The notes under the pieces: model-generated | What the model was told of the DNA's origin: nothing | Database searches by the model: none | What the model saw: the letters and a program-made list of their open reading frames with translations, nothing else | Made by a program: the position numbers and the translations under genes | DNA from: Candidatus Thalassarchaeum sp. | Lineage (GTDB): Archaea > Thermoplasmatota > Poseidoniia > Poseidoniales > Thalassarchaeaceae | Assembly: GCA_016777225.1 (NCBI GenBank) | Contig: JADHRW010000002.1 | Span: forward strand, 1,284 to 65,283 | Length of the DNA: 64,000 bases | Direction: 5' to 3' | Shown here: piece after piece, positions 7,725-50,433 of the stretch | Layout: each line of letters starts with the position of its first letter | Position numbering within the stretch: the first letter of the stretch is position 1

Positions 7725-10700
7725 TTATTTATTGGATTGATTATTTGTTAATTTTATCCAGGACTCGTCTTCTCTTTCTTCCCATACACCAATCCCTTGA
7801 CCAGTATACTGTAGAGGATCTGTATTCGTATAATCACCACCAGGTGGTAAGTCTTCCCAAGTTGAAACGATTTCAGGTACATTAACAGTAGTTGAAACAG
7901 ATTCAAATCCAGGTGGAGGTGGAGGTATCCTAGCACCAGATTGTATTTCTGGCATCGGAGGCGCCTCTGGTACTGAAGATTCAGGCAAAGGAGGCTTTTC
8001 TGGCATTGGTGGTGCCTCTGGTACTGAAGATTCAGGCATGGGAGGCTTTTCTGGCATTGGAGGCGCATCTGGTACTGAGTTATCTTCATCAAATACCATA
8101 TCTTGTTCTGTGTAATCAGTCATATCAGTACCTCTTTGATATGATAAAGCACTCTCAGGAGTACGCTTTTTTACAGTATATACTACTACTGAACCACCAA
8201 TCATAGCAATTATCACAAATAATATTAAAAATGTAGGTACAGGATTGAGAGCCATTTTGTCAGTAATAGATAATGGATACGCATTATCTCCCTTACCGTC
8301 ACCGTTACGATCTTCCCATTCAAGAGGGTCTTCAGGGAATTTATCGACTTGATTGAGAATATTATCTCCATCCTTATCGGCATCGAGTAAATCACAAGTA
8401 CCATCTCCATCTAAATCAGAAGGGATTGAATTACTTGACACAGAGCTTGTCTGGCATAATGCTTCTACGGTATCTGCCCATCCATCACCATCATCATCAG
8501 AATCTGTATTATCTCCCTTTCCATCTGAGTCAGTGTCCATTTGCTCAGTTGGGTCCATAGGGAATGCATCATCAATATCGGGAACCAAGTCATTATCATC
8601 GTCATTATCGACAAGATCACAAAGCCAGTCCTGATCAAAATCAAGAGGAATTGAACTACCATCTAGTGGATCAGTACCACAATTAGGCTCATAAATATCT
8701 AACCAATTGTCGCCATCATCATCATCATCGAAATTATCACCTATACCATCAAAATCGGTATCATCCCATTCTGCATTATCATTAGGGAACATATCTGAGA
8801 TATCGGGGACACCATCATTATCATCATCATCATCCACTAAATCACAGACACCATCAGCATCATAATCTACAGGTATTTGTAGAGAAGACATTGAGTCAGT
8901 ATTACATGATTCTTCATCTAAATCTGACCAGCCGTCGTTATCATCATCAGTATCTGAATTATCGCCGAGGCCGTCATTATCATTATCTACCCATTCTGTA
9001 GAATCTAGAGGAAAGGCATCGTATGCATCGGAAATAGAGTCTCCATCATCATCACCATCTAAATTATTGCCAATTCCATCGTTATCCGTATCAAACCATT
9101 CAGACATATCTGCAGGGAATGCATCTATTGCATTAGGATAATTATCCCCATCCATATCACCATCCATTAAATCACAAGAGCCGTCACCATCTAAGTCAGA
9201 AGGTATTGAGAAAGCACTTAGAGGATCTGAGTCGCATGAAGTCTCAATATTATCTGAATATCCATCTCCATCATCATCTGTATCCGCATTATTTCCTATG
9301 CCATCAAGGTCTGAATCATACCATTCTTCATCATTCATTGGGAATATATCTTCAGTATCTGCATATCCATCGTTGTCATCATCATCATCTATTGCATCAC
9401 AAGTAAGATCACTGTCAAAATCAGCAGGTATACTATTCCCAAGGAGTGGATCAGAACCGCATTCTAATTCTTCAGAGTCAGTAAAACCATCCCCATCATC
9501 GTCAGAATCAGCATTATTACCAATATTATCATTATCTGTATCCTCCCATTCAGATGAGTCGAGAGGGAAAGTATCATTCGCATCCTCGACGTTATCTCCA
9601 TCATCATCCATATCTAATGAGTCACAAAGACCGTCAGAATCAGTATCAACAGGTACACTATTATTATCTTCGGGATCGCTACCGCAATCTTCTTCTGTCA
9701 TATCATAGAAACCATCACCATCTGAATCTAGTGTAAAGAACCACCAAGACATTCCATAATCACCCTCACCAGAAGTTGCACGGACCTGAACTAAAACATC
9801 CATGCCTTCAACAATCATTCCAGGATAAGTCCCCGAGCCGTTTGAAGTTACATATTCTGGATTATTGACACTTGAATAATCAATAGTATTAGTCTGATCA
9901 TCACCTAAAATAACTTGAAAATCCACATTTGTAGCATTGAACCATACTGAAACAGCAACTCCATATCCCATTGGTACATTTGCCTGATAGTTGTCATTAA
10001 GATCATCATTTAGTGACCCCCAACCGTTGAAGCTATTGTTGACAGAAACCGCATTAATAAGTAAATTTGTAGGATTTAAGTAATCATTTGAGGCGTCTCC
10101 TCCAGTACCTGCATCATCTTGATTGTTAACAGGTGCATTAGTCATATCAACAAAATTAAATGATAAATTATAGTCATGAGAACCACTACCAAGAGTACCA
10201 TATGCAAGTGCTTTGAAAAATAAGTCACTACCTCCATAATTATTCACGGAAATATTCTCAGGATTATTGAACCAACTGTAAGTAATTATTGTACCTGAGT
10301 CATCATAAACTTCTAAATCTAAATCAGCAGTGGAATTCCAACTTAATGAAGCACTTACTCCAAAATTTGCTGGCATAGAGATCTTGTAATAATCACTAAC
10401 ATCAGTTGAATAAGTAACCTCACCCCAAAACGACATATTCGTAGCATTCAATACCATTGCAGAAGCCATTGTATCCCCTGCATCATTACCAGTCCCTGCA
10501 TCGTAACCATTTGTACCATTACCCGTACTGCCGCCACCTCCACCACCAGTAGAGAATATCCAGACTTGCAGCGTATATTGACCGCTACCGGTCCATTGTT
10601 CAATACGGATGTAGACTGTAGTTCCGCCTACATTAGTTCCATTAGAAGTGACTTCATCAGTACCTGTTGTAAAACTAGTGTCAATTGAACCACCACTACT

Positions 10701-10979
10701 ACTGTAAAGGTGAAGGTCGAAATCAGCACCAGAAGGAGAGTTTAATTGCACCACTATTCCAGTATTATTAGACATATTTACAGAGTAATAATCATCAACA
10801 TCCCCAGATGTACTTAAATTGCCATAATAACTTGCATTGGATGCTGGTATATTAGTTGCAGTCGATATAGAATCTCCAGCATCACCTCCTGTCCCTGCAT
10901 CGTTACCTAAAACAGGCATTGCGAGCATACTTAACATCAATATTGAAACTAAAATTGAGGTTCTCTTTTTACTAATCAT
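7725..10979 (-). CDS. Paralogous membrane-anchored surface protein: PPC-like domains, TSP3 repeat array, TM helix and a proline-rich cytoplasmic tail
   Basis: 1084-aa ORF with signal peptide (ILVSILMLSMLAMPVLG). Domain-initial motifs NDAGTGGDAGDS, YDAGTGNDAGDT and QDDAGTGGDASND. About 7 TSP3/Cys-pair super-repeats. TM VPTFLILFVIIAMIGGSVVVYTV. The tail carries 3x (SVPEAPPMPEKPPMPES) and IPPPPPGFES. Confidence 0.85.
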   Translation of the reverse strand: MISKKRTSILVSILMLSMLAMPVLGNDAGTGGDAGDSISTATNIPASNASYYGNLSTSGDVDDYYSVNMSNNTGIVVQLNSPSGADFDLHLYSSSGGSIDTSFTTGTDEVTSNGTNVGGTTVYIRIEQWTGSGQYTLQVWIFSTGGGGGGSTGNGTNGYDAGTGNDAGDTMASAMVLNATNMSFWGEVTYSTDVSDYYKISMPANFGVSASLSWNSTADLDLEVYDDSGTIITYSWFNNPENISVNNYGGSDLFFKALAYGTLGSGSHDYNLSFNFVDMTNAPVNNQDDAGTGGDASNDYLNPTNLLINAVSVNNSFNGWGSLNDDLNDNYQANVPMGYGVAVSVWFNATNVDFQVILGDDQTNTIDYSSVNNPEYVTSNGSGTYPGMIVEGMDVLVQVRATSGEGDYGMSWWFFTLDSDGDGFYDMTEEDCGSDPEDNNSVPVDTDSDGLCDSLDMDDDGDNVEDANDTFPLDSSEWEDTDNDNIGNNADSDDDGDGFTDSEELECGSDPLLGNSIPADFDSDLTCDAIDDDDDNDGYADTEDIFPMNDEEWYDSDLDGIGNNADTDDDGDGYSDNIETSCDSDPLSAFSIPSDLDGDGSCDLMDGDMDGDNYPNAIDAFPADMSEWFDTDNDGIGNNLDGDDDGDSISDAYDAFPLDSTEWVDNDNDGLGDNSDTDDDNDGWSDLDEESCNTDSMSSLQIPVDYDADGVCDLVDDDDDNDGVPDISDMFPNDNAEWDDTDFDGIGDNFDDDDDGDNWLDIYEPNCGTDPLDGSSIPLDFDQDWLCDLVDNDDDNDLVPDIDDAFPMDPTEQMDTDSDGKGDNTDSDDDGDGWADTVEALCQTSSVSSNSIPSDLDGDGTCDLLDADKDGDNILNQVDKFPEDPLEWEDRNGDGKGDNAYPLSITDKMALNPVPTFLILFVIIAMIGGSVVVYTVKKRTPESALSYQRGTDMTDYTEQDMVFDEDNSVPDAPPMPEKPPMPESSVPEAPPMPEKPPLPESSVPEAPPMPEIQSGARIPPPPPGFESVSTTVNVPEIVSTWEDLPPGGDYTNTDPLQYTGQGIGVWEEREDESWIKLTNNQSNK
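7947..8079 (-). repeat. 51-bp tandem repeat, about 2.6 copies, in-frame (17-aa Pro-rich unit)
   Basis: Units 7947-7997 and 7998-8048, plus a partial unit at 8049-8079, differ at only a few positions. They encode SVPEAPPMPEKPP[ML]PES in the cytoplasmic tail. Confidence 0.85.
8275..9731 (-). repeat. Coding super-repeat array (TSP3 plus Cys-pair module), about 75 aa period
   Basis: Runs from FTLDSDGDGFYD... to ...EWEDRNGDGKGDN. The first CGSDP-to-CGSDP distance, counted by hand, is 75 aa. Confidence 0.8.
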
Positions 10980-44361: not shown

Positions 44362-44928
44362 TTAATCACTCCTCAAACAGTTATCTACTAGAGCGTACAC
44401 TTCATCTGCATTTATATCATCAGCATTAATGATTAGACTATAAGGACTCATGTCATCTAAATCAATATCATAAAGAATTCGATACCTTTCTTTATCATCC
44501 ATTTGTCTTTTTTGTGATAATTGAAGTTGAGTTTCAAAATCACCACCCTCTCTATTTTGAATTCTACGCGCACATTCTTCGGGACTAACATTAACCCAAA
44601 TACGCAGGCAATCTATCTCCATCATGTGGGCCCACCAACCAGATAATCTACTTTCAATAATTTCAGAACCTTTGGTGTCTTGAAGTTCTTTCTTTAGAAT
44701 GGAATCGAGAGAGCGATCTACATCTAAATCTTCTTTACAGAGAACACTAAATTGACCCACAGTTAAGCCTCTACGCTGAGCTTCTGACCGAAATATGTCA
44801 CCTCCATTCAGAGATTTCCAAGAATATTCATCCACAATTCTCCTTACTAATGTGGATGTTCCACTTCCAGGAGGACCACTGACTGTGACTATAACCAAGA
44901 GCTCATCTCCATTCGGTTCTACAAACAT
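44362..44928 (-). CDS. cmk: Cytidylate kinase, archaeal type
   Basis: P-loop VSGPPGSGTST. Sits in the conserved archaeal order DUF106-cmk-cbf5. ATG 44928 overlaps the upstream gene by 26 nt. A TTG at 44898 (giving M-VIVTVSGPPGSG) would remove the overlap and fits family N-termini. Confidence 0.8.
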   Translation of the reverse strand: MFVEPNGDELLVIVTVSGPPGSGTSTLVRRIVDEYSWKSLNGGDIFRSEAQRRGLTVGQFSVLCKEDLDVDRSLDSILKKELQDTKGSEIIESRLSGWWAHMMEIDCLRIWVNVSPEECARRIQNREGGDFETQLQLSQKRQMDDKERYRILYDIDLDDMSPYSLIINADDINADEVYALVDNCLRSD

Positions 44929-45841
44929 CACAGCGCAATTTACCTTGTGCGGTTCTACTAATCATATCAGAATCACAAGAAGGACAAATAGTTCCTTTCT
45001 GAGGGGGGGCTACATGTTGATTACCACCTGTACGTTTTAATGATTCAGAAGATTGGACACCTGTTTTCCTAGGGCCTGCTCTCTTTCTTTGAGTTCTACG
45101 TGTTCTGTTATCTGAATTAGATTTTGATTTTTCTTCTTCAAGAAGATATAGTAAAGGCTCAGGTATCAAATCACCAGAAAGAACCACAGGATGAGTCTTG
45201 TAACGTAAAAGTTTCAGGTGTCTGTCAACAATTCTCCCAAGAGGAGCACTCATTGTGATATATGTGGCAATCCATGCAGGGAATATCCACATGATTTTAT
45301 TTTCAAAGCCCCACATTGGTTGCCAAGGTAGACTAACATAGTCGACTCTAAAATCAAGAACAGTATCTGCCATCCAACTAAATATTCCTATAATGAAAAT
45401 CATAGTAAACATCATTGGTTTCATCATAGCACCTTGCATTGCCATTTGTTCGGGCATCATCTCCATCTGCAATTTCTGCATTTTATCAATCTGAGCAGTG
45501 TCTCTTGACATTCTAGCCTCTCGCATTTGCTGACTAATTTGTTTACTTCTGTGGCTATGATGAGCTTGTTTCAAAGGATCCATAAAAAATGAACGTATTA
45601 CAGTATTTACAATCATTATACTAGAACCCAAGATAAAAACAGTCGGGACGAAGAATTGTTCAAGCCCTAATCGACCAAAAAGAAGAGGTTCTATTACAGT
45701 ACCAGCTCCATCTGATAGCGAATTCCTAAGACCAGGGAATAACATTAAACCCATCATCATAATCATTAGAAAAAGCATCGGCAGCATTGCTGAACCCATG
45801 CCAGCAGGCTGAGCATTACCATCAGCACCGGCATCTACCAT
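44903..45841 (-). CDS. DUF106 / EMC3-TMCO1-like archaeal YidC/Oxa1-type insertase with C-terminal basic tail and Zn ribbon
   Basis: TM1, then a Met/Gln-rich coiled segment QMREARMSRDTAQIDKMQKLQMEMMPEQMAMQGAMMKPMMFTMIFIIGIFSW (the DUF106 hallmark), then 2 more TMs. After that comes KSKSNSDNRTRRTQRKRAGPRKTG... and CPSCDSDMISRTAQGKLRCDVCRTEW. ATG 45841 is preferred over GTG 45874. Confidence 0.75.
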   Translation of the reverse strand: MVDAGADGNAQPAGMGSAMLPMLFLMIMMMGLMLFPGLRNSLSDGAGTVIEPLLFGRLGLEQFFVPTVFILGSSIMIVNTVIRSFFMDPLKQAHHSHRSKQISQQMREARMSRDTAQIDKMQKLQMEMMPEQMAMQGAMMKPMMFTMIFIIGIFSWMADTVLDFRVDYVSLPWQPMWGFENKIMWIFPAWIATYITMSAPLGRIVDRHLKLLRYKTHPVVLSGDLIPEPLLYLLEEEKSKSNSDNRTRRTQRKRAGPRKTGVQSSESLKRTGGNQHVAPPQKGTICPSCDSDMISRTAQGKLRCDVCRTEWR

Positions 45842-45906
45842 GATACGATGGCTTCGGATACATTGAATGAACACTTCGGTAAGCGAACGTCAAGTAAATT
45901 CATAAA

Positions 45907-48519
45907 TTATTTGAATGAATAACCACAAACTACACACGTAGAGGCCCCTATTTCTGAGTCAGACATACAAATTGGACAACTATTTTCAGGTATCTCTTTT
46001 ATCTCAGGCTCTGTAACTATCTCTTCGTTAATTATCTCTTCAGAGTTATCAGTTGAATCAAGAACCTGTTCTATAGATTCTGATTCCTCATCAAGAGGCG
46101 CTACTATGATCTCTTTGATTTCATTAGATTTTTTTGAAAGAGGAAGTGTAATTAAAGGAGTTTCAGGTACTGATTCGGCCCATTCAGGTACATTTGGTTC
46201 CTCGTCAACCTCTTTTCCGAATGTAGCACCGTGGAAATCTTGAGCATCAGATACTTTGTATTCTGCTTCAGTATCTCCTTGAATCTCATAAACTACTTCG
46301 ATTCTTTCATCTTTTTCAATTCGACCTACAAACCAAGTAACTTTATTGCCATCTCTTGCAGATTCTTTAGTGAAGGAAGCATCTTTTTCACCATTGATAT
46401 TAGATTTTACAGAAGAACTCTCGATTGAAAATGTACCAGGGACAATATCGTGTAATGCTAAATCATCCAGAGCACTATCTGACGTATTATGGAACATTAG
46501 TAAGATTTCATATCTTCCAGGTCCGCCGCCAGGAAACACTTCTTTACCAGTACTAATTTGTCGTCTTCGATGCACTACACGGATTACAGGAGGTCTTTCA
46601 ACTGTTCTTGTTGCTACGGGACCGAAACGTTCCATACTAAAGTCTGAACGAATTGGTGCTGCAAGAATTTTATTCTGTGGAGAAGGGTCAGGAGCGTGTA
46701 ATGGATATCGAATAACCATTGTTTTACCAGGCTTAAGTCCTAGTCTAGAAGAGGTCCCAACAGTAATTCTCAAAGCATGCCCCGGATTATCAGGAGAAAT
46801 CATTTTCTCTTCTATTTGATTACCATTTATCACTTCAATACGGTACTGTTCCTCGCTTAAGTCGGCACCCTCTATTTCTACCTGAATATTTTCAAGTTTA
46901 GGTGGAACAAATATTCCGGGTACATCATCAATTATTCTCATGACATTTATTGTTGCAGAACCGGTGTTTTCAATTGTAGTAGTAACTTCTAAATCAGACG
47001 ATATATATGACTTAATTCTGGATATATCAAATCTTTTGAGAATTGTTGCATCAAGAATAGATAGTTGCTGTTCTGAAACTTGTATAGAACCAGAGGATTT
47101 AACCGAAACCCTTGGAAGAATAGAATATCTGACTTCTTGAGTGAAACTAGGTTGATCCTCAGATTCAACTCTTTTTTCCATTGATTCCCAACTTCCTTCA
47201 GGTGGAATATCTTGTCTGAGGTCGGATACATCTAAGATAGGAGATTCACGACCTGCTAATCTAACAGATGCTCCCGCAAGAGATACCACAAAAGAAGATT
47301 TATTTTCGAATACACACTTGCAATGCCATACACCGGGCCTATCATCTTCTTTGGCATTAACATAAGAAAACTGGCGTCCAGAACTTGAGACATTCTCAAA
47401 ATTAATACGTGAAACTGTAGATTCAGCATTATATTTAACAATAGACTTACCAGCAGGTATTTTCTCTACACCATCAATCAAAATCGTAGGTAAGATAACC
47501 AATTTTCTATTTTCTCCAATAGACATCCTTCCGATTTCCCATATAACAGTAGTTTCTTCTATGCTATATTCAGGTGAGCTTGGAATCTCAAAATTTGAAG
47601 GGAAAGAACGTTTGAGAACGACGTCTGTTAAAGAAACTGGAGAAATATTTTCAATGTCGATAGAGAAAAGTACTTCTTGCGCATTTTTTGAGTATACTAA
47701 AGACATACTAGATTCTTGATCTCTCTCTGGTTCAGTATCAATTTTTTCTTTGATTTCTAACATTCTAGGGCCATTTGAATTGTAAGGGATTGTGGTTTCT
47801 TCAGTCGCATCTAATTCACGAACTGTTACAGTTTTACCGCCTAAATCGGTAGCATCAGTATTAGTAAGTTCAATTTCAATATCCCATGCCCGGTGCTTTT
47901 TACTAGGATTTTTTAATATTAGTTCACCCTCTATTGTTTGTTTTATAGAACTACCATCGGGATTAATCAAAGATTCTTCTACTTCACTAAGGATTGCATG
48001 TAATTTGTCACCAGGAATTACATCAACCTCTGAAGATAAGCGCAGATTTGGAGTCTCTGATACTGAAACGGAAGGTGTATTGAATGATTCGAGAGCATCA
48101 GAAAGATTATTCAGGTTAATTTGTTCATCTTTAACAATAGTTTCTTCCATCTCCCAAATCTCAGAATCATTATTACTCGATTGAACAGGATTTGGGGAAT
48201 CTAAAACCTCTAATTTATCAGAAACTATCGATTCACCAGCGGATGAAGTAGTAGATTCAGTCAGACTAGATAATGATGGAAATTCTAAACCAGGAGGTGG
48301 GGGTGGAATAACCAAACCCGGTGGTAATGGCGGAATATTAGAATTAGGAGTTGCTGAAGAACCATTGATTAAATTATCAATTGTGTCTCTAATATCATCT
48401 AAAGAGTCATCAATTTTATCCTTAAGACTATTCTTTTCATCATCCTCAGGAGGTGGTGGTGGTGGTTGAAATTCAAACCCCGGAGGAGGGGGGGGAGGGG
48501 GCGGTAAATTATCAGACAT
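45907..48519 (-). CDS. Uncharacterised 870-aa protein with no signal peptide or TM segment seen by eye: polyproline N-terminus, about 4-5 DUF11/CARDB-like beta-sandwich repeats, C-terminal Zn ribbon
   Basis: N-terminus MSDNLPPPPPPPPGFEFQPPPPPPEDD, also PPLPPGLVIPPPPPGLEF. Repeat-domain signatures ...IENISPVSLTDVVLKRSFPSNFEI...TTVIWEIGRMSIGENRKL, TIENTGSATINVMRIIDDVPG, LMFHNTSDSALDDLALHDIVPGTF...KVTWFVGRIEKDERIEV. C-terminus CPICMSDSEIGASTCVVCGYSF. No hydrophobic segment of TM length seen. Confidence 0.8.
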   Translation of the reverse strand: MSDNLPPPPPPPPGFEFQPPPPPPEDDEKNSLKDKIDDSLDDIRDTIDNLINGSSATPNSNIPPLPPGLVIPPPPPGLEFPSLSSLTESTTSSAGESIVSDKLEVLDSPNPVQSSNNDSEIWEMEETIVKDEQINLNNLSDALESFNTPSVSVSETPNLRLSSEVDVIPGDKLHAILSEVEESLINPDGSSIKQTIEGELILKNPSKKHRAWDIEIELTNTDATDLGGKTVTVRELDATEETTIPYNSNGPRMLEIKEKIDTEPERDQESSMSLVYSKNAQEVLFSIDIENISPVSLTDVVLKRSFPSNFEIPSSPEYSIEETTVIWEIGRMSIGENRKLVILPTILIDGVEKIPAGKSIVKYNAESTVSRINFENVSSSGRQFSYVNAKEDDRPGVWHCKCVFENKSSFVVSLAGASVRLAGRESPILDVSDLRQDIPPEGSWESMEKRVESEDQPSFTQEVRYSILPRVSVKSSGSIQVSEQQLSILDATILKRFDISRIKSYISSDLEVTTTIENTGSATINVMRIIDDVPGIFVPPKLENIQVEIEGADLSEEQYRIEVINGNQIEEKMISPDNPGHALRITVGTSSRLGLKPGKTMVIRYPLHAPDPSPQNKILAAPIRSDFSMERFGPVATRTVERPPVIRVVHRRRQISTGKEVFPGGGPGRYEILLMFHNTSDSALDDLALHDIVPGTFSIESSSVKSNINGEKDASFTKESARDGNKVTWFVGRIEKDERIEVVYEIQGDTEAEYKVSDAQDFHGATFGKEVDEEPNVPEWAESVPETPLITLPLSKKSNEIKEIIVAPLDEESESIEQVLDSTDNSEEIINEEIVTEPEIKEIPENSCPICMSDSEIGASTCVVCGYSFK

Positions 48520-48599: not shown

Positions 48600-49484
48600 A
48601 TGATACGAATGGTTGAAGAATTAACTATGTCAGGGTTAAACATGAGTGCTCAAGACGCGACCGCCCCACCAGTAATTTTCGTAGTAGGGACCGCAGGTGC
48701 TGGAAAGAGTTCGCTTGTCACTGCATTTCAAAGATGGGCACGGTTTCTCGAGGTTGATGCTTTAACTATTAATCTAGATCCTGGAGCGGAAAGAGTACAT
48801 TATGACCCTGAATTTGACGTTAGAGACCTTATTTCACTATCTGATGTGATGTCTGAGTATGACTTAGGCCCAAATGGTGCTCAGATACTTGCTGCCGATT
48901 TAGTAGCTGCACAAGCCGAAGATGTATTTCAAGAGATAGATGGTTTATCTGGAGACATACTAGTTGTTGACACACCAGGGCAAGTTGAATTATTCGCATT
49001 TAGAGAGGCATCAAGTCATTTAGTAGAAGTAATTGGCCAAGGAAGAGCCTGTCTAATATTTTTATTCGACCCAATGTTATCACAAACACCGAGTGGATTT
49101 GTATCACAAATGCTTCTATCTTCAATAGTTCACTTCAGATTAGGTCTACCTACAGCGAATTTCTTATCTAAGTCCGACCTATTAGAACCAGAGGTTCTTG
49201 AAAGGATTATTGAGTGGGGAGAAAATTTGGATGTATTGGAAGCGGCTCTTTATGAAGAATCAGCGGCTCAAAGTTTAGATGCAGCACATTCAGGACAAAG
49301 AGCAGAATTCGCTATCGGACAACTCAGAATGATGCAACATGCGTCCATTCAGCCAGGATTAATACCATTATCCAGTGAAGAAGAAGAGGGATTAGCAGAT
49401 GTATTGACATTTGCCCAGTCTCTCTTTGGTGGCATGGCAGATTCTAGAGATGGTTTCCAAGGGGATATTGAACATGAGTTATGA
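48600..49484 (+). CDS. GPN-loop GTPase
   Basis: VVGTAGAGKSS (P-loop), NLDPGAE, LGPNGA (GPN loop), DTPGQVELF. Confidence 0.85.
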   Translation: MIRMVEELTMSGLNMSAQDATAPPVIFVVGTAGAGKSSLVTAFQRWARFLEVDALTINLDPGAERVHYDPEFDVRDLISLSDVMSEYDLGPNGAQILAADLVAAQAEDVFQEIDGLSGDILVVDTPGQVELFAFREASSHLVEVIGQGRACLIFLFDPMLSQTPSGFVSQMLLSSIVHFRLGLPTANFLSKSDLLEPEVLERIIEWGENLDVLEAALYEESAAQSLDAAHSGQRAEFAIGQLRMMQHASIQPGLIPLSSEEEEGLADVLTFAQSLFGGMADSRDGFQGDIEHEL

Positions 49485-50433
49485 TATAGAAAAAAGAGAT
49501 TTGATGGCTATTGATGATTTTCAAGAAGATCTGCCAGAAATTATCAATTGGGCTATAAACCTGAAGAATGATGAAGATTTTTCTGATAGTTTCAAACCAT
49601 TGGAAGGTATGACTATTGGTTCCATATATGAAAAACCATCTACGAGAACAAGAGTTTCTTTTGAAGTCGGTGTGAATAAATTAGGAGGTCAACCTTTGAC
49701 ACTACTTGCTAATGATATACAGTTAGGTAAAAGTGAGTCTGTTTCAGATACTGCAGCAGTTTTATCGAGATACTTAGATGGAATAACTTACAGATGTTTC
49801 AAACATTCCGATGCACAATTACTAGCCAGTAGTGCCACTATACCAGTGATTAATGCACTTTCGGATATGCATCACCCCTGTCAAGCAGCTGCTGATTTAA
49901 TGGTAATAACTGAAAATAAAAAAGATCTAAATGGTCACATATCATGGGTCGGCGATGGAAATAATGTATTACATGATTTATTATTAGCAGGAGTATCTTT
50001 AGGCCATGATGTGAAGTATGCTACGCCTGAAGGTATGGAACCGAATAGAGAAGTAATTGGAAGAGCCGAGAAGATAGCGAAACAAACTGGTGCAGAAATT
50101 ACCGCAACTAATGACCCAGTAGAAGCAGTCAGTGATGCTGGAGTAATATATACAGATATTTTTGTGTCAATGGGGGAAGAACACATTAAGGATAAATTTG
50201 CAGCTTTTGACGGATTTCAAGTAAATGAAGAACTTGTATCAAATGCTAAAGACAATTATCTGTTTATGCACTGCTTACCAGCACACAGAGGAGAAGAGGT
50301 TACAGATGCCGTAATTGACTCAAAAAATAGTATAGTTTTCGATCAGGCAGAGAATCGAATGTGGGCACAAATGTCGCTACTTACTTACATGTGTAATCCA
50401 ATAGCTTGGGAAGCATATCGCGATTTATATTAA
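49474..50433 (+). CDS. argF: Ornithine carbamoyltransferase
   Basis: STRTRVSFE, SDMHHPCQAAADL, HCLPAHRGEEVT. ATG 49474 (MSYDIEKRDL) is preferred over the longest start at 49411. Confidence 0.85.
   Translation: MSYDIEKRDLMAIDDFQEDLPEIINWAINLKNDEDFSDSFKPLEGMTIGSIYEKPSTRTRVSFEVGVNKLGGQPLTLLANDIQLGKSESVSDTAAVLSRYLDGITYRCFKHSDAQLLASSATIPVINALSDMHHPCQAAADLMVITENKKDLNGHISWVGDGNNVLHDLLLAGVSLGHDVKYATPEGMEPNREVIGRAEKIAKQTGAEITATNDPVEAVSDAGVIYTDIFVSMGEEHIKDKFAAFDGFQVNEELVSNAKDNYLFMHCLPAHRGEEVTDAVIDSKNSIVFDQAENRMWAQMSLLTYMCNPIAWEAYRDLY

What the first reader, a model, noticed from the sequence alone, without database searches (positions are those of the whole stretch)
45907..48519. Orphan 870-aa protein with no signal peptide: polyproline PPG-hydrophobic motifs, beta-sandwich repeats and a terminal Zn ribbon, upstream of the YidC-like insertase
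I saw no signal peptide or TM segment, yet the core consists of domains of the DUF11/CARDB type normally found on cell surfaces.

The N-terminal 80 aa carry three proline motifs: PPPPPPPPGFEF, PPLPPGLVI and PPPPPGLEF. The last 25 aa are a CxxC-x11-CxxC ribbon.

The gene sits 65 bp upstream of, and co-directional with, the DUF106 insertase, cmk and cbf5. This is the slot where other archaea carry secY/adk-linked genes. The insertase also ends in a Zn ribbon.

PPG followed by a hydrophobic residue is the ligand consensus of SMY2-type GYF domains in eukaryotes. I recognise no GYF, SH3, WW or profilin gene in this window, so the binding partner is unknown. I know of no described family with this architecture.
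Basis: partly seen in the sequence, partly recalled or inferred. Interest (0 to 1): 0.6.

Follow-up and report, generated by a model that had tools for sequence, protein, structure and literature searches.

The report
Archaeal mu-homology scaffold with polyproline motifs
This is not an orphan: it is a single-copy cytoplasmic protein found in every Marine Group II (Poseidoniales) genome sampled, and its folded core begins with a domain like the cargo-binding mu-homology domain of eukaryotic vesicle adaptors, a core shared with Asgard archaea, to which this order has added polyproline motifs and a zinc ribbon.

Summary
It has no signal peptide or TM segment, three PPG-hydrophobic polyproline motifs in a disordered N-terminus, and a C-terminal C4 zinc ribbon. 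It sits just upstream of the DUF106/EMC3-like insertase.

It is not an orphan. Orthologs occur in 31/31 sampled Poseidoniales genomes, one detected per genome, in fixed synteny. The ~600-aa core (residues ~165-790) belongs to a large cytoplasmic family. That family is present in 66/81 Asgard genomes (1-5 copies) and in a few other Thermoplasmatota families.

AlphaFold2 models the core at pLDDT ~97. Residues ~165-395 resemble the mu-homology domain of AP-2/AP-3/AP-4 mu and delta-COP. Three generic Ig-like sandwiches follow. The "DUF11" hit lies inside the mu-homology-like domain.

The polyproline motifs and zinc ribbon are Poseidoniales-only additions (104/120 and 120/120 orthologs; 0/98 distant relatives). 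No GYF, WW, SH3_1, profilin or AP sigma/longin gene was found.

Best reading: a cytoplasmic interaction scaffold or adaptor, probably acting at the membrane. The architecture is well supported. The function is inferred. Linkage to the insertase is specific to this order and is weak evidence.

The parts
45907..48519 (-). Whole ORF, 870 aa plus stop
   Evidence: Orthologs in 39/41 relatives and in 31/31 Poseidoniales of the class sample.
48040..48519 (-). Disordered N-terminal region (residues 1-160): 28% Pro in the first 90 residues, acidic, hypervariable in length between orthologs
   Evidence: AF2 pLDDT 31-58; composition; alignment A6.
48469..48504 (-). Polyproline motif 1: PPPPPPPPGFEF (residues 6-17)
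48280..48333 (-). Polyproline motifs 2 and 3: PPLPPGLVI-PPPPPGLEF (residues 63-80)
47335..48027 (-). Mu-homology-domain-like domain (residues ~165-395)
   Evidence: pLDDT ~97. Foldseek hits to AP-2 mu2, AP-3 mu3A, AP-4 mu4, AP-1 mu1 and delta-COP MHD: E 2.5e-8 and weaker, target-normalised TM 0.56-0.74 for the isolated-MHD chains, rmsd 4-6 A for most. Family profile against PDB: the best 22 hits are all MHDs. 23/63 family members hit PF00928.
47458..47682 (-). Pfam DUF11 match (residues 280-354). It lies inside the second half of the MHD-like domain.
   Evidence: In relatives the same stretch is covered by PF00928 positions ~122-236.
46150..47334 (-). Three tandem Ig-like beta-sandwich domains (residues 396-790)
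   Evidence: Separate AF2 model, pLDDT 94.5. Foldseek gives only generic tandem-Ig hits: integrin alpha legs, AgI/II C123, pilins. Weak bMG10 and Alpha_adaptinC2 hits at 667-756.
45988..46149 (-). Disordered acidic linker (residues 791-844, 30% Asp+Glu)
45910..45987 (-). C-terminal C4 zinc ribbon (residues 845-870; CPIC-x10-CVVC)
   Evidence: pLDDT 78-90. Present in 120/120 orthologs and 0/98 distant relatives. Profile match to the C-terminal Zn ribbon of 9sfa_A, E 0.017.
44903..45874 (-). Downstream neighbour: DUF106/EMC3-TMCO1-like insertase with a basic tail and a C-terminal Zn ribbon (context, not shown to be a partner)
48600..49484 (+). Divergent upstream neighbour: GPN-loop GTPase (PF03029), conserved at this position in all seven Poseidoniales loci that reach it (context)

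Best explanation
The gene encodes a cytoplasmic, modular interaction scaffold that is a single-copy core gene of Poseidoniales.

Its rigid core is a mu-homology-like domain (residues ~165-395) followed by three Ig-like sandwiches (396-790). This core is homologous over its full length to a family that is widespread and paralogous in Asgard archaea and patchy in other Thermoplasmatota.

Poseidoniales added two things to the core. The first is a disordered N-terminus carrying 1-6 copies of a short linear motif, PP(x)PPG-[L/F]-(acidic). The second is an acidic linker ending in a C4 zinc ribbon.

Inferred mechanism: as in eukaryotic MHD proteins, the beta-sandwich platform binds short peptide motifs of partner proteins, plausibly cytoplasmic tails of membrane proteins, at the inner face of the membrane. 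The multivalent proline motifs and the Zn ribbon would recruit or cross-link further partners.

Shown: anatomy, fold, conservation and phyletic pattern.

Inferred: peptide binding, membrane proximity and the identity of all partners.
For: - No signal peptide or TM segment in the target, or in about 100 family members apart from two giant DUF11 surface proteins.
- Orthologs in 39/41 relatives and in 31/31 Poseidoniales of the class sample, one full-length ortholog detected per genome; 0/30 in sister orders.
- Whole-core homology at 22-30% identity, E down to about 1e-53 for the 22-30% relatives; 356 cluster representatives at E<=1e-3.
- PF00928 is hit by 23/63 family members. The best is E 1.9e-10 at 40.9 bits against a cut-off of 31.6, covering profile positions 12-236 of 259.
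- In the family-profile search of PDB, the top 22 hits are all AP mu or delta-COP MHDs; best E 4e-4.
- AF2 models the core at pLDDT ~97.
- Foldseek matches MHDs at TM 0.56-0.74 and rmsd mostly 4-6 A. The C-terminal half alone matches MHDs only at TM 0.19-0.29 and rmsd 14-22 A, which serves as an internal control.
- The family is present in 66/81 Asgard genomes, 1-5 copies each.
- In the tree, Poseidoniales are monophyletic (96), sister to other Thermoplasmatota (90), and that group is sister to one Asgard subfamily (93).
- The motif and Zn ribbon are conserved in the order only, and the motif far exceeds chance.
- Eme et al. 2023 report the mu C-terminal domain in Asgard.
Against: - The target itself gives no PF00928 hit at E<=1.
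- A Poseidoniales-only profile reaches AP-2 mu only at E 1.7. The MHD call therefore rests on transitive homology plus a predicted structure.
- Sequence identity to MHDs is 8-14%. The MHD's second half overlaps DUF11, a common Ig-like fold, so deep convergence or generic sandwich similarity is not fully excluded.
- No ligand pocket could be checked.
- No other AP-complex part was found: PF01217 was absent in 21 genomes, without a positive control.
- No proline-motif reader was found.
- AF2 does not dock the N-terminal motifs onto the core; their pLDDT is below 60.
Confidence: 0.6

Rival explanations
1. It is an accessory factor of membrane-protein biogenesis. On this reading it works with the downstream DUF106/EMC3-like insertase, for example tethering it or its substrates or ribosomes through the Zn ribbon and proline motifs.
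For: - It lies immediately upstream of, and co-directional with, DUF106 in all ten Poseidoniales loci (MGIIa and MGIIb) that include the neighbourhood.
- Both proteins end in a C4 Zn ribbon.
- In other Thermoplasmatota families the ortholog lies next to a divergent Sec11-like signal peptidase I: TIGR02228 E 7e-9 (below its cut-off) and SEC11A in PDB E 4e-5. That is a second link to the secretory pathway.
Against: - The whole block UbiA-argF-GPN/target-DUF106-cmk-cbf5-CARDB is syntenic across the order, so the adjacency carries little specific information.
- Orthologs in other Thermoplasmatota and in Asgard are not near DUF106.
- The Sec11-like gene is convergent with the ortholog, so not co-transcribed.
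- Terminal Zn ribbons are common here: 31 proteins in this proteome.
- A TATA-like TTTATGAATTTA sits in the intergenic spacer, so DUF106 may have its own promoter (my inference).
Confidence: 0.15
2. The MHD resemblance is generic. On this reading the protein is a cytoplasmic string of four or five DUF11/Ig-like sandwiches with a structural role, such as a lattice, spacer or cytoskeletal linker, unrelated in descent and mode of action to adaptor mu subunits.
For: - The top Foldseek ranks are multi-Ig adhesins and integrin legs.
- DUF11 is hit by 59/63 members against 23/63 for PF00928.
- The Poseidoniales-only profile barely sees mu subunits.
- Identity to MHDs is about 10%.
Against: - The multi-Ig hits have poor TM (0.14-0.35) and rmsd 13-50 A, whereas the MHD hits superpose at rmsd mostly 4-6 A and TM up to 0.74.
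- PF00928 matches pass Pfam's curated cut-off and span both subdomains, positions 12-236 of 259.
- All of the best 22 PDB sequence hits are MHDs, not Ig domains.
Confidence: 0.15
3. It is a surface or S-layer-associated DUF11 protein exported by a non-classical route.
For: DUF11 and CARDB domains are typical of cell-surface proteins. The genome encodes many giant surface proteins, one of them (798 aa, CARDB) in the same syntenic block.
Against: - No signal peptide or TM segment in the target, or in about 100 relatives apart from two giant DUF11 surface proteins, across two phyla.
- A C4 Zn ribbon and long acidic and proline-rich disordered regions fit cytoplasmic proteins (established knowledge).
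- Genuine surface proteins of this genome do carry a signal peptide and a TM segment.
Confidence: 0.05

Closest known systems
Asgard archaeal proteins with the 'C-terminal domain of the mu subunit' (Pfam PF00928), listed as eukaryotic-signature-protein candidates by Eme et al. 2023 (PMC10307638)
   Same: - Homologous over the whole ~600-aa core (MHD-like domain plus three Ig-like sandwiches), 22-30% identity, E to about 1e-53.
- Cytoplasmic.
- Not fused to a longin domain.
- Function unknown.
   Different: - Asgard members lack the polyproline N-terminus and the Zn ribbon (0/98).
- They have 1-5 paralogs per genome.
- One subfamily sits in a conserved block with a BBS7/BBS2/ITFG2-like beta-propeller. 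No match at E<=1e-4 was found in 31 Poseidoniales genomes; the best hits were E ~1e-3 over about 90 residues.
Mu-homology domains of AP-1 to AP-4 mu, delta-COP, stonins and muniscins
   Same: Predicted fold of residues ~165-395 (TM 0.56-0.74). Sequence-profile similarity at family level. Location in a cytoplasmic protein with disordered, motif-rich regions.
   Different: - No N-terminal longin domain and no detectable partner subunits.
- Three extra Ig-like domains follow the MHD.
- About 10% identity.
- Ligand pockets (YxxPhi, WxxPhi, DPF) were not assessable.
SGIP1 / FCHo / Syp1 (muniscin-type layout: proline-rich disordered region followed by a muHD)
   Same: The same order of a proline-rich disordered segment and a mu-homology domain. 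This suggests the same logic: linear motifs recruit partners while the muHD acts as a hub.
   Different: This is analogy only. There is no F-BAR or membrane-binding module, the motif consensus differs, and the domain fusion is independent and specific to this order.
DUF11 (PF01345) / CARDB repeat proteins of prokaryotic cell surfaces
   Same: One stretch (residues 280-354) passes the DUF11 cut-off. The following domains are Ig-like sandwiches.
   Different: No export signal. A single hit rather than a repeat array. The hit is embedded in an MHD-like two-subdomain unit.

Membership tests
Mu-homology domain (Pfam PF00928 Adap_comp_sub) | Sequence match to the PF00928 model above its gathering score | tested here: not met
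   The target has no hit at E<=1. At family level, 23/63 members hit at E<=1e-3, and P0144 (40.9 bits) and P0165 (35.2 bits) exceed the 31.6-bit cut-off.
Mu-homology domain (Pfam PF00928 Adap_comp_sub) | All-beta fold of two sandwich subdomains, ~250-280 residues, superposable on solved MHDs | tested here: met
   AF2 pLDDT ~97. Foldseek to mu2, mu3A, mu4, mu1 and delta-COP: TM (target-normalised) 0.56-0.74, rmsd mostly 4-6 A. The C-terminal half, used as a control, matches MHDs poorly. This rests on a predicted structure only.
Mu-homology domain (Pfam PF00928 Adap_comp_sub) | Binds short linear motifs (YxxPhi, WxxPhi/WxW, DPF) or cargo tails | not testable with these tools
   No complex prediction or model coordinates were available.
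AP / COPI adaptor medium subunit | N-terminal longin domain fused to the MHD | tested here: not met
   The N-terminus is a disordered proline-rich region. No PF01217 hit in the protein.
AP / COPI adaptor medium subunit | Partner subunits (sigma/longin small chain, large adaptins) encoded in the genome | tested here: inconclusive
   PF01217 was absent from 21 Poseidoniales genomes, but no control genome rang.
Asgard/Thermoplasmatota MHD-plus-3-Ig core family (unnamed) | Full-length collinear homology of the ~600-aa core with its nearly invariant positions (E179, G198, N204, W327, P395, N406, S408, P457, G520, K659, N678) | tested here: met
DUF11 (PF01345) | Match above the gathering score | tested here: met
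   29.6 bits against a 24.6 cut-off, residues 280-354.
DUF11 (PF01345) | Typical context: exported or surface protein with tandem repeats | tested here: not met
   No signal peptide or TM segment. One hit only.
Ligand of SMY2-type GYF domains (PPG-hydrophobic) | A GYF-domain reader present in the organism | tested here: inconclusive
   PF02213 was absent from 21 genomes, but no positive control rang. The motif consensus PPG-[L/F] fits: 298 of 335.

The most novel reading that the evidence does not exclude
Poseidoniales may run a eukaryote-like short-linear-motif network under the membrane.

On this reading the mu-homology scaffold binds cytoplasmic tails of the giant type-I surface proteins. 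Its multivalent PPG-[L/F] motifs, which also occur in several membrane-protein tails, would be read by the order-specific tryptophan-rich tail module GLP[DE]GW[ST]M[ED]QW..YG.

This would be a primitive cargo-adaptor or clustering system outside Asgard. It would imply that the mu-homology adaptor principle predates, or spread beyond, the Asgard-eukaryote lineage.
Probability: 0.12. Interest if true: 0.85.

Novelty: new variant of a known kind. Interest (0 to 1): 0.6.

Why it matters
The mu-homology domain is the cargo- and partner-binding hub of eukaryotic coat adaptors. In archaea I found it reported only from Asgard, as a candidate eukaryotic signature protein.

This report shows the same full-length core as an apparently indispensable single-copy gene in Marine Group II, one of the most abundant archaeal groups in the surface ocean, and in a few other Thermoplasmatota.

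Two consequences follow.
- It tempers the 'Asgard-specific' reading of this signature protein.
- It offers a simpler system, one gene copy per genome with order-specific proline motifs and a zinc ribbon as handles, for asking what an archaeal mu-homology protein binds.

It also flags a conserved, multivalent proline motif in an organism with no recognisable proline-recognition domain.

Tried and rejected
- The search for related loci with the broad alignments A1 and A2 failed because no stretch was conserved enough. A narrower Asgard sub-alignment worked.
- The direct PDB sequence search with the target gave nothing relevant.
- The Poseidoniales-only profile reaches AP-2 mu only at E 1.7. Sequence evidence for the MHD therefore needs the wider family.
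- The C-terminal half alone gives only generic Ig hits. No convincing adaptin-ear assignment emerged despite weak Alpha_adaptinC2, bMG10 and gamma-ear hits.
- The Asgard BBS7-like propeller partner gave no match at E<=1e-4 in 31 Poseidoniales genomes; the best hits were E ~1e-3 over about 90 residues.
- The 142-aa Asgard neighbour that earlier notes call longin-like gave no Pfam or PDB sequence hit here. I did not adopt that label.
- GYF, profilin, WW, SH3_1 and Clat_adaptor_s were all negative in 21 genomes. Only SH3_1 had controls that rang.
- The tryptophan-rich tails and the other polyproline proteins have no Pfam family.
- Literature searches for mu-homology, muniscin or PF00928 together with Asgard or archaea found nothing specific. 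The Poseidoniales-specific families paper does not mention this protein.
- The idea that the two adjacent C-terminal Zn ribbons are special was dropped. 31 proteins of this proteome have terminal CxxC...CxxC ribbons.
Full report
**Observation**

The ORF at 45907-48519 on the minus strand encodes 870 aa from an ATG. The highest 19-residue Kyte-Doolittle mean is 1.16, far below a membrane helix. The first 90 residues are 28% proline and net acidic, so I see no signal peptide or TM segment. No dedicated predictor was available.

The three motifs are present as described: PPPPPPPPGFEF at 6-17, PPLPPGLVI at 63-71 and PPPPPGLEF at 72-80.

Pfam gives one significant hit, DUF11 at 280-354 (29.6 bits, cut-off 24.6). 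There are weak bMG10 and Alpha_adaptinC2 hits at 667-756.

Downstream on the same strand lie an EMC3/TMCO1-like (DUF106) protein that also ends in a Zn ribbon, then cmk and cbf5. A GPN-loop GTPase lies divergently upstream.

**Not an orphan**

The word-indexed search returned 545 homologs at E<=0.001. All 120 listed are unnamed or 'hypothetical' proteins, and the source names that exist are of Marine Group II type (Thalassarchaeaceae, Euryarchaeota).

In whole genomes the gene is found in 39 of 41 relatives and in all 31 Poseidoniales of a class-level sample. One full-length ortholog was detected per genome; in two genomes the gene is split over short contigs. It is found in none of 30 genomes of the sister orders.

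Gene order is fixed in both families of the order: UbiA-argF-GPN, divergent to target-DUF106-cmk-cbf5, then a 798-aa CARDB surface protein.

**A wider family**

An exhaustive phmmer search of 1.84 billion cluster representatives found 356 proteins at E<=1e-3. Many of them, 580-750 aa long, align with residues ~170-760 of the target at 22-30% identity.

None of the ~100 checked has a signal peptide or TM segment, a polyproline motif or a Zn ribbon. The only exceptions are two giant bona fide DUF11 surface proteins.

A degenerate-pattern scan of GTDB species genomes with one subfamily returned 80 loci. Nearly all of those with an informative title are named Promethearchaeota (Loki-, Hermod-, Hod- and Odin-labelled MAGs).

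A family profile hits 66 of 81 genomes of that phylum with 1-5 full-length copies.

Within Thermoplasmatota the profile finds full-length members in all Poseidoniales and in four other families (codes f19, f11, f43, f44). Elsewhere it finds only DUF11 fragments.

In a maximum-likelihood tree (IQ-TREE quick search, LG+G4, SH-aLRT support):
- Poseidoniales are monophyletic (96).
- They group with the other Thermoplasmatota (90).
- This group is sister to one of at least three Asgard paralog clades (93).

The pattern fits either old vertical descent with losses or one ancient transfer. I cannot tell which.

**What the core is**

Several distant members match Pfam Adap_comp_sub (PF00928, the mu-homology domain of adaptor medium subunits) above its curated cut-off. 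P0144 scores E 1.9e-10 and 40.9 bits against 31.6, covering model positions 12-236 of 259. In all, 23 of 63 aligned members match at E<=1e-3. The DUF11 hit falls in the second half of that match.

A profile of the 63 sequences, searched against all PDB sequences, returns AP-3 mu, AP-2 mu and delta-COP as its best 22 hits (best E 4e-4).

AlphaFold2 with a 109-sequence alignment models residues 160-790 at pLDDT ~97. Residues 1-136 and 791-840 are disordered, and the Zn ribbon is folded.

Foldseek against the PDB finds the isolated MHDs of mu2, mu3A and mu4 at target-normalised TM 0.56-0.74, most at rmsd 4-6 A; mu1 and delta-COP match within longer chains at lower normalised TM. Higher-ranked multi-Ig adhesins and integrin legs superpose poorly (TM 0.14-0.35, rmsd 13-50 A).

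As a control I modelled residues 395-790 alone (pLDDT 94.5). It matches only generic tandem Ig structures, and matches MHDs badly (TM 0.19-0.29, rmsd 14-22 A). The MHD likeness therefore belongs to residues ~165-395, and three Ig-like sandwiches follow.

Caveat: the target itself does not hit PF00928, and a Poseidoniales-only profile reaches AP-2 mu only at E 1.7. For this protein the assignment is transitive and structure-based.

**Order-specific additions**

Of 120 Poseidoniales orthologs, 104 carry at least one strict PP(x)PPG-hydrophobic motif (median 2, maximum 6). The motif is always N-terminal of the core, in a region that is otherwise hypervariable in length and sequence. PPG is followed by L or F in 298 of 335 cases.

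All 120 end in a CxxC...CxxC ribbon. None of 98 distant relatives has either feature.

In this proteome PPPPG+hydrophobic is expected 0.04 times and observed 6 times. This is the signature of a functional short linear motif.

I found no reader. GYF, WW, profilin and SH3_1 models hit nothing in 21 Poseidoniales genomes, with the caveat that only SH3_1 rang in control genomes.

**Context and function**

The adjacency to DUF106 is real but weakly informative, for two reasons. The whole block is syntenic in the order. Orthologs elsewhere have other neighbours:
- In other Thermoplasmatota: a PfkB kinase, a divergent Sec11-like signal peptidase I (convergent) and NFACT (divergent).
- In Asgard: a DUF4147/MOFRL protein upstream and a BBS7/BBS2/ITFG2-like beta-propeller downstream, in 54 and 56 of 57 loci respectively.

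That propeller gave no match at E<=1e-4 in Poseidoniales; the best hits were E ~1e-3 over about 90 residues. No AP sigma/longin domain was found either.

Two independent neighbours from the membrane and secretory-protein pathway (insertase, signal peptidase), plus a coat-like propeller in Asgard, hint at a role at the membrane. That hint is my inference, not a result.

My best reading is a cytoplasmic interaction scaffold. The MHD/Ig platform would bind partner motifs, and the proline motifs and Zn ribbon would recruit further partners. Anatomy and homology carry about 0.85 confidence. The adaptor mechanism carries about 0.35-0.4.

**Comparison with the known**

Eme et al. [quoted passage not shown] A 2026 preprint notes that most coat and adaptor signature proteins fall in structural clusters shared with other prokaryotes.

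I found no paper describing this family in Poseidoniales or its polyproline/Zn-ribbon form.

Earlier notes of this scan reached the same MHD reading on another Poseidoniales genome and described the Asgard three-gene block. I treated these as leads and re-derived the evidence here.

**Verdict**

This is a new, order-specific variant of the archaeal mu-homology family, of real but moderate interest. Its function is still inferred.

Noticed in passing
own genome C7:127839-132608(-), C8:74435-77605(-), C10:175991-179566(-) (outside the window): Three giant type-I surface proteins each have a signal peptide, one TM segment near the C-terminus and a cytoplasmic tail ending in a shared motif, GLP[DE]GW[ST]M[ED]QW..YG. 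The DNA pattern for GW[ST]x[DE]QW hits 28/28 Poseidoniales genomes (1-12 copies each). It gives 7 single hits in 123 other Thermoplasmatota genomes. No Pfam family matches.
   Followed up: partly
window 7725-10979 (-) and own genome C8:252045-253049(-), C5:21765-22553(-), C17:81455-82558(-): Other proteins carry the same or related proline motifs. One is a 1084-aa surface protein whose cytoplasmic tail has three PPMPE-type repeats plus PPPPPGF. One is a 334-aa membrane protein ending in 3x PPMPPPPGL. One is an acidic 262-aa protein with PPLPPGI plus a P7 run. One is a 367-aa protein with an N-terminal Zn ribbon, (EP)n and polyproline. This suggests a shared, unidentified motif reader.
   Followed up: partly
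MGIIa orthologs P0123, P0125, P0126, P0129 (alignment A6, columns ~1225-1275): MGIIa (Poseidoniaceae) orthologs carry an insert in the C-terminal linker with an EF-hand-like loop (D-x-D-x-N-G-Y-L-x-x-x-E; less regular in P0123). The insert is absent from the window's protein and other MGIIb orthologs.
   Followed up: no
L038-L116 (Asgard loci), e.g. L052:5926-12206: A conserved Asgard block: a DUF4147/MOFRL protein, the MHD-family protein and a BBS7/BBS2_Mid/Itfg2-like beta-propeller (83 bits to PF23743) lie on one strand, with a convergent 142-aa protein. The flanking proteins are each present in 54-56 of 57 loci. The 142-aa protein gave no Pfam or PDB sequence hit.
   Followed up: partly
L028-L036 (other Thermoplasmatota): Orthologs there are flanked by a divergent Sec11-like signal peptidase I with long charged extensions (convergent) and by an NFACT/Rqc2-type protein (divergent). 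This arrangement is conserved across two families.
   Followed up: partly
window 44903-45874 (-): The DUF106/EMC3-like insertase has a ~90-aa extension with an Arg/Lys-rich tail and a CPSC-x15-CDVC ribbon. Terminal C4 ribbons are frequent in this proteome: 31 proteins.
   Followed up: partly
window 49411-50433 (+) vs 48600-49484 (+): The listed argF ORF starts at a TTG that overlaps the end of the GPN GTPase gene by 74 nt. The true start is probably further downstream.
   Followed up: no
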